The translations under genes were made by a program, and so were the position numbers. Below are positions 1 through 61,532 of a stretch of DNA of 64,000 nucleotides, one piece after another; the stretch's first letter is position 1; each line of letters starts with the position of its first letter. The notes beneath the pieces were generated by a model that was not told the origin of the DNA, ran no database searches, and saw only the letters and a list, made by a program, of their open reading frames with translations. The DNA lies in assembly GCA_964016885.1 (NCBI GenBank), contig OZ024746.1, positions 79,546,001 through 79,610,000 of the forward strand. Reading direction: 5' to 3'. The stretch is from Eledone cirrhosa (taxonomy: Eukaryota).

Positions 1-313
1 CCCTTCCTCCTAATATTCTCTATAAAAACTAAATAGGTCCTCAGTAATATTATTCTGATGAAATGACAGTAAACAATAACATTGAAATATTGAATGTCTG
101 CATAACTAAAAGTTTGTAGATAGCTGTTTTAGGTTATGTAACTGTTATAGAAACACGTGTCAATAAATTCCTTTCAACTAAACTGTATCCATTCAAATCT
201 TTCTATTTTTCTCCGGATTACTTTTGGAACTACAACTGGAACCGTCGAGCAAACTCTACGTGAGCTGATAATCTACTGTGTGTAATATTTATATTACAAC
301 ACAACGGAAAAAA

Positions 314-374
<61 letters not shown>

Positions 375-7929: not shown

Positions 7930-8174
7930 GTTAAAGGTAAACAGAATTAACAAAAAATAAAAAAAATAAAATGGCACAGTACATGGAAGAAATATATTAG
8001 GTTAACGCTTGAAACTGCAGGAAGGGAGTCTTAATGTTTCGAACACTAGTCCTTCATCAGAAGATTAGAGTTAGAAATAGAAGAGAAATAGAACGTAAAG
8101 AGTGGTGAAAGGAAGGAAAGGGGAAAATGGGAAAAAATAACTGAGGAGAAAAGAACACACGTGCGTATTTAGTC

Positions 8175-8178
<4 letters not shown>
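7930..8178 (-). mobile_element. PLE-like 3' end (pLTR) fragment with a minimal hammerhead at 8028-8064
   Basis: Minus strand TCTT-CTGATGA-A-GGAC-tagt-GTTC-GAAAC-ATT-AAGA; bounded by (TG)n and (TA)n. Confidence 0.65.
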
Positions 8179-8229
<51 letters not shown>

Positions 8230-8298
8230 CAAGGTTTAGTAAATAGAGAAAGTGTTTTAGAATAAATTTTAAAAAGTTCGCTGTATTTACTATATGTA

Positions 8299-8380
8299 TC
8301 CTTACCGCGCGGTTTCAAATCCCAAAATAAATACATAATCCAGGCGGACCACCATTGAGAAGGGGATTCTCGTCAGAAGG
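8299..8380 (-). ncRNA. Type I hammerhead ribozyme (left arm)
   Basis: CCTT-CTGACGA-GAATCCC...GGGATTT-GAAA-CCGCGCGG-TA-AGG on the minus strand. Confidence 0.8.
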
Positions 8381-8826
8381 TTCTTCTCGCTCGGAGAATA
8401 TAAAATTCCCGAGTTCAAATCACAAACTGGCGCCATACAAAACTGTTCCCAGATGAGAGTGAATGAGGAAGGAACCAATTCTGTTTAGTGTCGTGTGTAA
8501 AGACAGAAGGCAGGGGCGGACAGGTCAATGTCCTGCCACTAGAAATAGCAGCAGTTCAAACGACCAAAATGCTATCTCAACCTTAGGGGCTATTAATAAT
8601 AATAAACTATGTGTTCCTACGTGTAAAAAATACATATAGGGATACAAGTATTATCCAACCGTATGCCAATGTGGTTCTATGACCTGTCCGCCCCTGCCTT
8701 CTGTCTTTACACACGGCACTAGACAGAATTGGTCCCTTCCTCATTCACTCTCATCTGGGAACAGTTTTGTATGTCGCCAGTTTGTGATTTGAACTCGGGA
8801 ATTTTATATTCTCCGAGCGAGAAGAA

Positions 8827-8908
8827 CCTTCTGACGAGAATCCCCTTCTCAATGGTGGTCCGTCTGGATTATCCATTTATTTTGGGTTTTGAAACCGCGC
8901 GGTAAGGG
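8827..8908 (+). ncRNA. Type I hammerhead ribozyme (right arm)
   Basis: Stem I CCTT/AGGG, core CTGACGA, stem II GAATCCC/GGGTTTT with a long loop, GAAA, palindromic stem III CCGCGCGG, GTA cleavage triplet. Confidence 0.8.
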
Positions 8909-8977
8909 TACATATAGTAAATAGCGCGAACTTTTTAAAATTTATTTTAAAACTTTTTCTCTATTTGCTAAACCTTG

Positions 8978-9021
<44 letters not shown>

Positions 9022-9027
9022 CATATA

Positions 9028-9146
<119 letters not shown>

Positions 9147-9212
9147 AATATATATATATATATATAAACAGATATATATATATATATATTTATATATATG
9201 TATATGTATATA

Positions 9213-9330
9213 TAACGAAGGAGTTGTGGTAAGGAACCAGATGGAGCATAACGCACCAGAGTACTCAATACTTAGGGTAGTAGCCGTCGAAACGGCTTGA
9301 GCTCTGCCGTCGGGGGTCATACTTTCTCAT
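9213..9330. mobile_element. (TA)n-embedded fold-back family G, rearranged copy
   Basis: Inverted tail joined to forward TAGCCGTCGAAACGGCTTGAGCTCTGCCGTCGGGG. Confidence 0.8.
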
Positions 9331-17090: not shown

Positions 17091-17289
17091 TTTTCTATAT
17101 CTATTTATCTATCTATCTATCTATATCTATCTATCTATCTAACTATCTACCTACCTATCTATCTATCTATCTATCTATCTGTCTATCTATCTATCTACCT
17201 ATCTATCTAACTATCTACCTACCTATCTATCTATGTATCTACCTACCTATCTATCTATGTATCTACCTACCTATCTATCTATGTATCTA

Positions 17290-18015
17290 CTGGGCGCCTG
17301 GCACACCGAGTGTGCCCAGGCGCTCACGGCTCTCTGGCAGGCGGACCCGGCTGTCAGTGGAGAATCCATCGCGTCATTCTATAGAGGGCTGGTGGTTAGC
17401 AGGTGCGACGACGCCCTCGGAGAAGCCCTAGGCATGGAGGAAGACGAACTGGCCAACCTGTTCGGTAGGACATTCAGCCCGGGACCCATGGATAACTTCC
17501 AGAGGTCCCTGGCCTGGCAGTGCTACCGAGGGGCTCTGCCCGTTCGAGAAAGGCTCTACAGACACGGGCGCCCGGGTAGGGACCCCTCGATAAAGATCTG
17601 TCCCATATGCGTGTGCGACGAGGAAACCGTTGCACACGCATTGGTACACTGCTCGGGCATTGCCGATCTGTGGGGCTATGTCGAACAACTGCTGTCAAGG
17701 GTGGGACCGATCCGGTTGACCACCGAGTCTATTGTAACAATCAAGCCGCCTCCCCTCTTCAAAAACGAAGGAGAGGCGGTGTTTCTGTGCGTAATAGCCA
17801 TGGCGAAAGAGGTTGTATGGTGGACGCGTCTGAAAGGACTGAGGTCAGATACCTTTCTCTCTGGCCAACAACTGGTCCGTTTCTTCCGATATCATTTCGG
17901 AAGAAGGATCAGGATGGAGAGAGAGGTGCTGCACCCCAGCCGTTTTTATGAAAGATGGGTGAAAGTGGCGAGAATGGCCCGTGTGAATGGGCCTTCACTC
18001 TACATCAGACTATAG
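17290..18015 (+). pseudogene. LINE ORF2 C-terminal fragment with zf-RVT-like CCHC domain
   Basis: LAWQCYRGALPVRERL...CPICVCDEETVAHALVHC; the ATG in the ORF track comes from the flanking microsatellite. Confidence 0.88.
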
Positions 18016-23108: not shown

Positions 23109-23186
23109 TTTCGTTTCTGAATTTGTTGAAAGCAACTAGTGCGTGTGTTTCTTATTGGCAACATGACCCTCCCAAAGTAAAACAAT
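23109..23186. mobile_element. (TA)n-embedded family T, minimal copy
   Basis: Left end TTCGTTTCTGAATTTGTT fused to right end GAAAGCAACT..GGCAACATGACCCTCCCAAAGTA. Confidence 0.8.
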
Positions 23187-23299
23187 ATATATATATATAT
23201 ATATACCGTACAAAAGTGCCAAATATATTATTCAAAGCAACTGTTGCTCAATACAGACGAACGGGAGGAATGTGGTGAACAGTGTTGCTGACTAAATAA

Positions 23300-35175: not shown

Positions 35176-35763
35176 TGTGTGTATGTGTGTGTGTACGCAC
35201 ACATTTATGTAACTATATATCATTGAACCATCTTCTCTCTCTCTCTCTTTCTCATTCTATTTCACTCATTTTCCTCTTCGACTTCGTCTTTTCTTCCTTT
35301 AAAACAAACACCATCAATAAACATCATATCCTATCCTACTCCATTTCAGAATCTGTATGATCAGAACGTTTGTCCAACTTAATGATGTTTGAAGTTGTGA
35401 TAATACTGTTTATTATACACACAGTTCCAATCATAGATAAAGCAGACTTTTAGTGGCAAGGTTTTGCGAGAAAACTTTGTTTTATTCCTTGTAGTTCTTT
35501 TCCTTGCTATATTGAATTTAAAAAGCTAATTATCAACCAAATGGGATACCACTAACAACTATACTTGTTGAATAAACGCATTCTCTAAGAATGAAATAAA
35601 GACAAATACGCGACTTAGAAATACCTATGTATTCATCTAACATATATTTGTGTATACGCACAGGCATACACACACGCACATATACACATATCCACCATAC
35701 ATACATATACACATATACACATATACACATACACACATATATATGTATGTATCTATCTATCTA

Positions 35764-35797
<34 letters not shown>

Positions 35798-35798
<1 letters not shown>

Positions 35799-35924
35799 TG
35801 ATGATTTCTAAAGAATGAAACAGTTCTAGTCCTGTAGAATCACATCTATATTAAAACTTGTATACTCTGCAATGTATTAAGTACCTTACTTACTGTGGTT
35901 ACCTCCGATTCAACCCGGAATAAC

Positions 35925-35925
<1 letters not shown>
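35798..35925 (+). mobile_element. (TA)n-embedded family H copy beginning exactly at a hammerhead-like core
   Basis: CTGATGA-TTTCT-aa-AGAAT-GAAAC...GTC; matches the reverse complement of 61285-61412. Confidence 0.8.
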
Positions 35926-35956
<31 letters not shown>

Positions 35957-35963
35957 ATATGTG

Positions 35964-35997
<34 letters not shown>

Positions 35998-56489: not shown

Positions 56490-56500
<11 letters not shown>
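56164..56500. mobile_element. (TA)n-embedded fold-back element with ~70-bp arms (about 56253-56323 and 56428-56499)
   Basis: ATAAGATCAAAAGATGGTTAAATGAGTTCCATGTATTT and its reverse complement; CTGATGA on the minus strand in the spacer. Confidence 0.8.
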
Positions 56501-56545
<45 letters not shown>

Positions 56546-56547
<2 letters not shown>

Positions 56548-57010
56548 CGTTTCTGAATTTGTTTAGCAAGATTCTTTATTTGAAAACGTGTGTTCATACC
56601 GATATGAATGGAATAGCAACATCACAACTTACAATTAAGGACAAAATGAAAACACACACGCACATAGAACAAACAACTAACCAGTAACATGTAAATAAAC
56701 AAATAAATAAACAAATATAAACACATGGATGTAACACAGGCGCAAACTAAGCACACAACACACACAAAAACAAGATGGCGTAGGACAGAACAAAGGAGAG
56801 GCACAAAAACAAAGAAAAGAATCCCCAGTCACTGAAGAGGTCACAGAATGTGTGACGAAAGAACTTTGACAATATATTAACAATCGTCTGGTTGTGGAAC
56901 CAACCAACTAACCGGAAATTTATAAATTTATAAATTTAATTTATAATAAATTGAAGTGAAAGCAACTGGTGCGTGTGTTTCTTATTGGCAACATGACCGT
57001 CCCAAAGTAT

Positions 57011-57016
<6 letters not shown>
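56546..57016 (+). mobile_element. Family T long copy containing a hammerhead
   Basis: Same left and right ends as 23109 and 61009; (TA)n on both sides. Confidence 0.82.
56828..56870 (+). ncRNA. Minimal hammerhead ribozyme
   Basis: GTCA-CTGAAGA-G-GTCACA-gaatg-TGTGAC-GAAA-GAAC-TT-TGAC; stems I and II pair. Confidence 0.7.

Positions 57017-57056
<40 letters not shown>

Positions 57057-60873: not shown

Positions 60874-61532
<659 letters not shown>

What the first reader, a model, noticed from the sequence alone, without database searches (positions are those of the whole stretch)
8225..8982. 760-bp inverted repeat with a complete hammerhead ribozyme in each arm
Seen: ~303-bp arms (about 15 mismatches), (TA)n on both flanks, each arm with CTGACGA/GAAA cores, stems I-III, a GTA triplet, a self-complementary stem III (CCGCGCGG) and an unusually long (~40 nt) loop II. 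Known: Penelope-like element pLTRs carry type I hammerheads, often with palindromic stem III allowing dimeric cleavage, and occur as inverted pairs. Inference: a transcript from either strand would contain one ribozyme plus its antisense copy, so hairpin formation and self-cleavage would compete; the unit may be a retrozyme-like non-autonomous element and a long dsRNA substrate for ADAR or Dicer.
Basis: partly seen in the sequence, partly recalled or inferred. Interest (0 to 1): 0.8.

Follow-up and report, generated by a model that had tools for sequence, protein, structure and literature searches.

The report
Back-to-back retrozyme pair in microsatellite
The inverted repeat is two truncated copies of a common 490-base non-coding mobile repeat, each carrying a hammerhead ribozyme fold that is predicted to cut RNA only in pairs, joined head to head in a TA microsatellite, most likely as a routine by-product of insertion by a Penelope-type retrotransposon enzyme and not as a regulatory switch.

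Summary
In detail: 303-nt arms, 15 mismatches, (TA)n flanks and a type I hammerhead fold in each arm, supported by compensatory changes across related families. The 760-bp unit is not the element (0 of 28 other top loci hold it). The unit that recurs is a 485-489-nt non-coding monomer, with over 1,000 exact motif matches for one subfamily. It has two fixed 3' ends on (TA)n, variable 5' truncation and partial tandems: the insertion footprint of Penelope-like elements. The window holds monomer positions 33-489 and 187-489 head to head, an arrangement found in 47 of 152 sampled insertions. The '40-nt loop II' holds a conserved hairpin. A palindromic stem III points to cleavage as dimers. On either strand the antisense arm is transcribed first, so read-through RNA would likely silence the ribozyme, not compete with it; each arm also has private weakening mutations. 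No RNA data, no cleavage test, mobilising partner not identified. Verdict: a non-LTR retrozyme or non-autonomous Penelope-like family with an extended hammerhead that Rfam misses; this locus is likely an inert insertion. The scan noted a ribozyme-free analogue in another genome.

The parts
8225..8681 (-). Left copy: 5'-truncated monomer, positions 33-489 of the 489-nt unit; 3' end at family end site 1, facing left
   Evidence: 95.4% to the natural monomer in L003 over 33-489
8680..8982 (+). Right copy: 5'-truncated monomer, positions 187-489; 3' end at site 1, facing right
   Evidence: 96.4% to the L003 monomer
8680..8681 (.). Head-to-head junction with a 2-nt overlap (TG)
   Evidence: 22 of 47 head-to-head junctions show 1-4 nt overlap
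8826..8909 (+). Type I hammerhead fold, right copy; predicted cut after 8904; private U-U mismatch in stem II at 8887 (28 of 28 other copies have A)
8298..8381 (-). Type I hammerhead fold, left copy; predicted cut after 8303; private A-C mismatch in stem I (8299) and two changes in the distal hairpin (8333, 8334)
8851..8877 (+).
   Evidence: folds; helix 3 (85% of cells paired, 2 of 6 pairs with double changes)
8894..8903 (+). Self-complementary stem III (10-nt palindrome), predicted dimerisation helix; mirrored at 8304-8313
8178..8225 (.). (TA)n target tract, left
8982..9214 (.). (TA)n target tract, right

Best explanation
The locus is two 5'-truncated copies of a 489-nt non-coding, hammerhead-bearing tandem repeat joined head to head in (TA)n, most likely written in one insertion event by the reverse transcriptase and endonuclease of an autonomous Penelope-like element. 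SHOWN: monomer size, two fixed 3' ends about 115 nt apart, (TA)n flanks, variable 5' ends, partial tandems, frequent head-to-head pairs, arms more alike than unrelated copies, a covarying hammerhead fold. INFERRED: tandem source loci give multimeric (or circular) RNA; the enzyme cuts both strands of the palindromic (TA)n and primes cDNA from each at an internal start site; the two cDNAs grow towards each other, stop early and are joined through 1-4 nt of microhomology. In tandem RNA two ribozymes would pair through the palindromic stem III and cut after GUA to release monomers. At this locus a read-through RNA would fold into a 303-bp hairpin that masks its single ribozyme, so the locus is likely inert.
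For: Unit and ends; 169 of 202 arm 3' ends fall at site 1 (122) or site 2 (47). Architecture in 144 pattern-sampled loci: 103 single-strand, 47 head-to-head, 1 tail-to-tail and 1 three-arm cluster of 152 classified (2 more at locus edges left out). One template source: in 29 of 29 pairs that share 60 nt or more, the arms are more alike than the median family copy, and 5 pairs are identical; the window's left arm matches the right arm better than any of 115 other copies, and the arms share two minority alleles (11 of 28 and 4 of 28). Two primings: in 20 of 41 pairs neither arm lies within the other, and in 29 of 41 both arms end at a family end site (6 of 47 rearranged pairs left out). Ribozyme: 10 of 21 pairs with double-sided changes, 44 such cells, 0 of 500 shuffles as high; three different stem III palindromes, 160 of 212 cores palindromic, dimer 15-18 kcal/mol better than two monomers. 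Literature: inverted 5'-truncated copy, tail and (TA)n bias are standard for these elements (PMC8557442); internal initiation at two sites and extension of both strands shown in vitro (PMC11167929). Autonomous (TA)n-targeting elements with the same two-end pattern are in this genome.
Against: The mobilising element was not found: no homology between the monomers and six stretches of three autonomous families apart from a 27-nt AT-rich match to a different repeat, and no ORF-bearing long form among 93 non-TA flanks. 5' ends show no clear pile-up at the predicted cut (6 of 202 in the 7-nt bin, neighbouring bins 0-7), so the genome gives no footprint of cleavage in vivo. The window's own pair is of the nested type (187-489 lies within 33-489), which fold-back copying explains equally well. 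16 of 117 other copies match the right arm as well as the left arm does. The tail (about 115 nt) is longer than the 30-40 nt described. The 17 rows of the covariation alignment were picked by me from 363 core hits and are related by descent.
Confidence: 0.8

Rival explanations
1. Same element, but the inversion arose from one priming event followed by fold-back: the cDNA (or an antisense template) primed on itself at a microhomology and copied itself back to the end site.
For: The window's right arm is wholly contained in the left copy, and 21 of 41 pairs are nested; several have nearly symmetric junctions (L213, L224, L038). Self-priming was proposed for rotifer Penelope (PMC3846280). Later asymmetric deletion could turn nested pairs into non-nested ones.
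Against: 20 of 41 pairs are not nested, some share almost no sequence (L045, L064, L098), and arms often end at different fixed sites. One pair joins a retrozyme arm to an arm of an unrelated autonomous element (L033).
Confidence: 0.1
2. The locus has been co-opted as a regulatory RNA in which hairpin formation (ADAR or Dicer substrate) competes with self-cleavage.
For: A transcript across it would form a 290-295-bp hairpin of about -550 kcal/mol. Small RNAs from Penelope copies are reported in rotifers (PMC3846280).
Against: The arrangement is routine: 16 of 47 head-to-head pairs have a whole ribozyme in both arms. Both ribozymes carry private damaging changes, and the 15 private changes include no A-to-G. 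The antisense arm is transcribed first on both strands. No gene context was identified in the window.
Confidence: 0.05
3. The monomer is the detached terminal repeat of a still-present autonomous Penelope-like element, not an independent non-autonomous family.
For: 5' truncation is the rule for these elements, and my sample covers only part of the copies (at most 40 scored per DNA search; 100 listed places per pattern). Retrozymes resemble such terminal repeats in Xenopus (bioRxiv 10.64898/2026.07.22.740005).
Against: Monomers join monomers directly in tandems of up to about 19 units with no ORF between them; none of 93 non-TA flanks revealed a shared ORF; several diverged families keep the same 485-nt size.
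Confidence: 0.04
4. A MITE with 303-bp terminal inverted repeats and a TA target duplication.
For: Inverted ends and TA flanks, as the sequence shows.
Against: 0 of 28 other top loci hold the unit; junction positions differ at every head-to-head locus; 103 of 152 insertions have one orientation only.
Confidence: 0.01

Closest known systems
Metazoan non-LTR retrozymes (Cervera and de la Pena 2020, PMC7229834; Li et al. 2026, bioRxiv 10.64898/2026.07.22.740005)
   Same: Non-coding tandem repeats with one type I hammerhead per unit, low GC (0.38-0.39), monomers to multimers, co-existence with Penelope-like elements, dimer-type stem III as in axolotl.
   Different: Monomer 485-489 nt against about 170-400 nt in Cervera 2020 (within the 51-972 range of Li 2026); stem II extended by an internal loop and a distal hairpin; insertion footprints (two fixed ends, head-to-head pairs, (TA)n targets) are not described in the parts of those papers that I read; expression and circles untested here.
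Terminal repeats and insertion structures of endonuclease-bearing Penelope-like elements (Craig et al. 2021, PMC8557442; Arkhipova et al. 2013, PMC3846280; Frangieh et al. 2024, PMC11167929)
   Same: 5' truncation, partial tandems, inverted 5'-truncated copy head to head, optional tail between two start sites, (TA)n bias, microhomology at 5' junctions, start site 1 lying 78 nt behind the ribozyme cut.
   Different: No ORF; tail about 115 nt instead of 30-40 nt; no sequence homology found to the autonomous families examined.
Minimal hammerheads of Penelope-like elements (Cervera and de la Pena 2014, PMC4209133)
   Same: Helix I of 5 bp, helix II of 7 bp, palindromic helix III, pairs on opposite strands 100-700 bp apart already noted in Schistosoma.
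   Different: The G10.1-C11.1 pair is not conserved (G-U, A-U, G-C and unpaired), no extra base after position 9, and 54 nt lie between the core halves.
Non-autonomous Chlamys elements such as MRC1 (Craig et al. 2021)
   Same: Non-autonomous Penelope-type elements that form multicopy head-to-tail insertions.
   Different: Most Chlamys lack a canonical hammerhead, and these share 3' sequence with a known autonomous family; here the ribozyme is conserved and the partner is unknown.

Membership tests
Type I hammerhead ribozyme | CUGANGA and GAAA core with UH cleavage triplet | tested here: met
   Core columns invariant in 17 of 17 aligned sequences from several families
Type I hammerhead ribozyme | Three helices around the core, helix I open | tested here: met
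   92.4% of cells paired; double-sided changes in 3 of 5 pairs of helix I and 5 of 7 of helix II; each window copy has one private mismatch
Type I hammerhead ribozyme | Match to an Rfam hammerhead model | tested here: not met
   No hammerhead family among the matches; likely due to the long stem II (inference)
Type I hammerhead ribozyme | Self-cleavage | not testable with these tools
   Bench assay needed; the indirect test (5' ends at the cut site) was inconclusive, 6 of 202
Non-LTR retrozyme | Tandem repeats with a hammerhead in each unit | tested here: met
   Tandems of 2 to about 19 units elsewhere in the genome; the window locus itself has no tandem
Non-LTR retrozyme | No protein-coding capacity | tested here: met
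   No tblastn hit at E below 0.01 to autonomous element DNA; a 42-codon frame in the window's subfamily is lost in the young subfamily
Non-LTR retrozyme | Monomer size in the described range | tested here: inconclusive
   485-489 nt: above 170-400 nt, inside 51-972 nt
Non-LTR retrozyme | Expression as linear and circular monomer RNA | not testable with these tools
   No RNA holder listed
Penelope-type insertion | 5' truncation and partial tandems | tested here: met
Penelope-type insertion | Inverted 5'-truncated copy, head to head | tested here: met
   47 of 152 clusters head to head, 1 tail to tail
Penelope-type insertion | Optional tail between two 3' end sites | tested here: met
   122 ends at site 1 and 47 at site 2 of 202; tail longer than described
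Penelope-type insertion | AT-rich or microsatellite target | tested here: met
   142 of 169 site-1 and site-2 ends pass a strict TA-flank test
Autonomous Penelope-like element | RT plus GIY-YIG ORF | tested here: not met
MITE | Whole unit with both inverted ends recurs at fixed size | tested here: not met
   0 of 28 loci; 103 of 152 single-orientation

The most novel reading that the evidence does not exclude
The palindromic stem III does more than enable cleavage: it pairs two sibling RNAs so that a dimeric Penelope-type enzyme primes both ends of a (TA)n break at once. Head-to-head insertions, a long-unexplained trait of these elements, would then be twin target-primed events on paired templates, and the thousands of near-identical copies here, with non-nested arms and rare mixed pairs, would be a direct record of it.
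Probability: 0.12. Interest if true: 0.75.

Novelty: new variant of a known kind. Interest (0 to 1): 0.4.

Why it matters
The locus itself is probably inert. The family is useful. (1) It gives insertion-footprint evidence that animal retrozymes are moved by Penelope-type enzymes, which the papers read argue from shared ribozyme type, co-occurrence and sequence likeness. (2) A young subfamily (98-99% identity, 1,001 exact motif matches) makes the origin of inverted Penelope structures testable; Craig et al. name this as open. (3) It shows a hammerhead architecture with a long, hairpin-capped stem II that Rfam misses. (4) About a third of sampled insertions are inverted repeats, a possible genome-wide source of long double-stranded RNA where host transcripts cross them (untested).

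Tried and rejected
Rfam at gathering score and at E up to 10: no hammerhead. Sequencing runs: no RNA holder listed. The three listed runs are contigs of unrecorded kind from one sample; they hold the family at high depth and show other opposite-strand joints, but no listed contig bridges the window's junction, which proves nothing. Pile-up of 5' ends at the predicted cut: not distinguishable from neighbouring bins. Editing footprint in the arms: 0 of 15 private changes are A-to-G. MITE: rejected. The 42-codon frame at the monomer start: present in most copies of the window's subfamily, absent from the young subfamily, rejected as a gene. Search for the autonomous partner: a Hydra-type family (L215, L218, L274), a very young Hydra-type family with 785-aa frames and Neptune/Nematis-type pieces (L239, L019) show no homology to the monomers; shared non-TA flanks were a SINE-like insert and simple repeats. 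Two short family motifs were not found in the Craig et al. supplement as held (long runs are cut and line breaks may hide matches). Literature searches for a description of this family found none; the library lacks most subscription papers, and the bioRxiv supplements of Li et al. were closed.

Full report
1. Observation. The arms are 8225-8527 and 8680-8982, 303 nt each, 15 mismatches, no gaps, between (TA)n tracts. Each arm, read outwards, holds CTGACGA, a 7-bp stem II, GAAA, the palindrome ACCGCGCGGT, the triplet GTA and a 5-bp stem I. Rfam reports no hammerhead at any threshold tried.

2. The unit that recurs. The right arm has 2,630 candidate places in the 3.0-Gb genome, 40 scored. Of 28 other top loci none holds the 758-nt unit. 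Copies share a fixed 3' end followed by (TA)n and run upstream through the window's 'spacer' into another copy of the same end: the unit is a 489-nt monomer in partial tandems. The window is monomer 33-489 on the minus strand (8681-8225) and 187-489 on the plus strand (8680-8982), with a 2-nt overlap. Relatives form subfamilies at 87-89%, 85% and 74-77% identity to the window's type. One is very young (best 40 loci 97-99% alike; 1,001 exact matches of a 26-nt motif, control 0). A further family matches only near the ribozyme yet has the same size and architecture. The host looks octopus-like from genome size, microsatellite load and element content; this is my inference, not a tool result.

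3. Is the ribozyme real? I aligned 17 natural cores chosen by hand to span the families, out of 363 hits in 138 types. The core is invariant. Of 21 pairs 10 show changes on both sides (6 of 500 shuffles as high), 44 cells do (0 of 500), and slid controls pair at most 54% against 92%. These rows are related, so the shuffle counts are not probabilities. The 39-nt 'loop II' folds into a distal hairpin in all 7 sequences folded. Stem III takes three main palindromic forms; 160 of 212 cores are perfect palindromes (loci picked by the stem III pattern left out), and a dimer is computed 15-18 kcal/mol more stable than two monomers. This fits the dimeric, weakly active hammerheads of Penelope-like elements (PMC4209133, parts 1-2 of 4 read). 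Cleavage is not shown. In Li et al. only 1 of 9 predicted dimers cut in vitro (parts 1-3 of 5 read). The 5' ends of copies do not pile up clearly at the cut: 6 of 202 in that 7-nt bin, 0-7 in neighbouring bins. Many insertions run through the site, so the template is mostly uncut multimer or circle, as in the anole element, where cleavage was dispensable (PMC11167929, parts 1-2 of 4 read).

4. Insertion footprint. In 144 loci sampled by position from three pattern searches (first listed places only, duplicates removed), 152 clusters could be classed and 2 lay at locus edges: 103 one orientation, 47 head to head, 1 tail to tail, 1 three-armed. Of 202 arm ends 122 lie at site 1, 78 nt behind the cut, 47 at site 2, 105-122 nt further on, and 33 elsewhere. 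22 of 47 junctions overlap by 1-4 nt and 8 are blunt. Craig et al. describe exactly this set for Penelope-like elements: truncation, partial tandems, an inverted 5'-truncated copy, a tail, (TA)n bias (PMC8557442; passages, section 11 and two supplement searches). Opposite-strand ribozyme pairs 100-700 bp apart were noted in Schistosoma. 16 of the 47 pairs have a whole ribozyme in both arms, like the window.

5. How the inversion forms. The arms come from one source: 29 of 29 pairs with 60 nt or more in common are more alike than the median family copy, and 5 are identical (18 pairs share too little to test). In the window the left arm's best match is the right arm (0 of 115 others as good), although 16 of 117 others match the right arm as well; the arms share two minority alleles and have 10 and 5 private changes. 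Fold-back copying, proposed for rotifer Penelope (PMC3846280, passages), requires one arm to lie within the other. That fails in 20 of 41 pairs (6 rearranged pairs dropped), and both arms end at a family end site in 29 of 41. Two priming events, one on each strand of the palindromic target, explain this, and the anole enzyme cuts and extends both strands and starts at two internal sites. Against this: the window's own pair is nested, and later deletions could mimic non-nesting.

6. Partner. The genome holds autonomous (TA)n-associated elements. One family has the Hydra-clade motifs (RWR, DKT, CxCx5C) and two 3' ends about 95 nt apart. A second, very young family has open frames of 785 aa in several copies. 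Neptune/Nematis-type pieces carry GIY-YIG domains (the clade label is my reading of the motifs). None is homologous to the monomers, and no long ORF-bearing form turned up among 93 non-TA flanks. Two single loci hint at shared machinery: L175 fuses a young monomer in sense to the Hydra-type 3' part through a short microhomology, and L033 joins a monomer head to head with a Neptune-type 3' end, TA on both outer sides. Each could also result from a later deletion. The partner is unresolved.

7. What this locus would do. Both ribozymes point outwards, so a transcript from either side makes the antisense arm first. The 758-nt RNA folds with 290-295 of 303 arm-arm pairs at about -550 kcal/mol; the duplex over one ribozyme is -150 against -11 to -18 for its active fold. 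Each strand has one ribozyme only, and each has private damage: a U-U mismatch in stem II on the right (28 of 28 other copies intact), an A-C mismatch in stem I and two hairpin changes on the left. Self-cleavage is therefore predicted to lose, unless transcription starts between the arms. Whether the locus is transcribed or edited is unknown.

8. Comparison and novelty. It works like a metazoan non-LTR retrozyme (PMC7229834; passages and sections 14 and 17 read) moved by Penelope-type machinery. Sequence-level membership tests are met; RNA-level tests could not be run. Differences: larger monomer, hairpin-extended stem II, variable first pair of stem II, longer tail. Six literature searches found no description of this family; PMC8967140 (passages) lists Penelope among cephalopod repeats without such detail. 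Closed bioRxiv supplements and repeat databases that I could not see may already hold it as an unclassified repeat. The bold reading, that stem III pairs two RNAs for twin priming, is weakened by Naiad elements, which form inverted insertions without a canonical hammerhead, and by the fact that one multimeric RNA would also supply two identical templates.

9. Verdict. Real feature, known class, new variant; the inverted repeat is a common insertion product. Interest 0.4.

Noticed in passing
L215:3244-3565 (-), L218, L271-L280: A Hydra-type autonomous family carries a conserved hammerhead-like fold whose core reads CAGAAGA instead of CTGANGA, with a 5-bp stem III, in 20 listed matches from 16 loci; activity unknown.
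   Followed up: partly
L215:3565-4264 (-) versus L218: The same family has a stretch of about 700 nt after its ORF that begins AG|GTAAGT and is missing in L218, L044 and others, like a spliced intron.
   Followed up: partly
window 35746-35971 and 61239-61488: Another hammerhead-bearing repeat (short stem II, GTA site); the second place is itself a head-to-head pair in (TA)n.
   Followed up: partly
window 8030-8070 (-): A degenerate minimal hammerhead core of an unrelated family, 150 bp left of the finding.
   Followed up: no
window 56497-57046, 60956-61263, 23127-23205: Pieces of the Neptune/Nematis-type element of L239, in both orientations.
   Followed up: no
window 1-374: 98% match to sequence behind the ORF of the very young Hydra-type family (L305, L308).
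   Followed up: no
window 17143-18015 (+): LINE 3' fragment with a zf-RVT domain just under the Pfam cut-off.
   Followed up: partly
window 8916-8923 region and all families in alignment A1: A GTAAGT or GTAGGT motif about 10 nt behind the predicted cut recurs across the diverged families (the window arms read GTAAAT), followed by an AT-rich hairpin that ends near site 1; it may be a splice donor or an enzyme-binding site.
   Followed up: no
G000:C1:176443930-176453320 and L224: Long tandem arrays of the monomer (about 19 and 11 units), candidate source loci; the L224 array ends in an inverted pair identical to it over 487 nt.
   Followed up: partly
L004, L013, L030, L059: A SINE-like element interrupts the monomer at the TTA-rich site 2 in four loci.
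   Followed up: partly
L016:1860-2280, L058, L089: A further small hammerhead-bearing family with head-to-head pairs in (TA)n.
   Followed up: no
monomer positions 3-131 (L003): A 42-codon hydrophobic frame starts at site 1 in the window's subfamily; absent in the young subfamily.
   Followed up: yes
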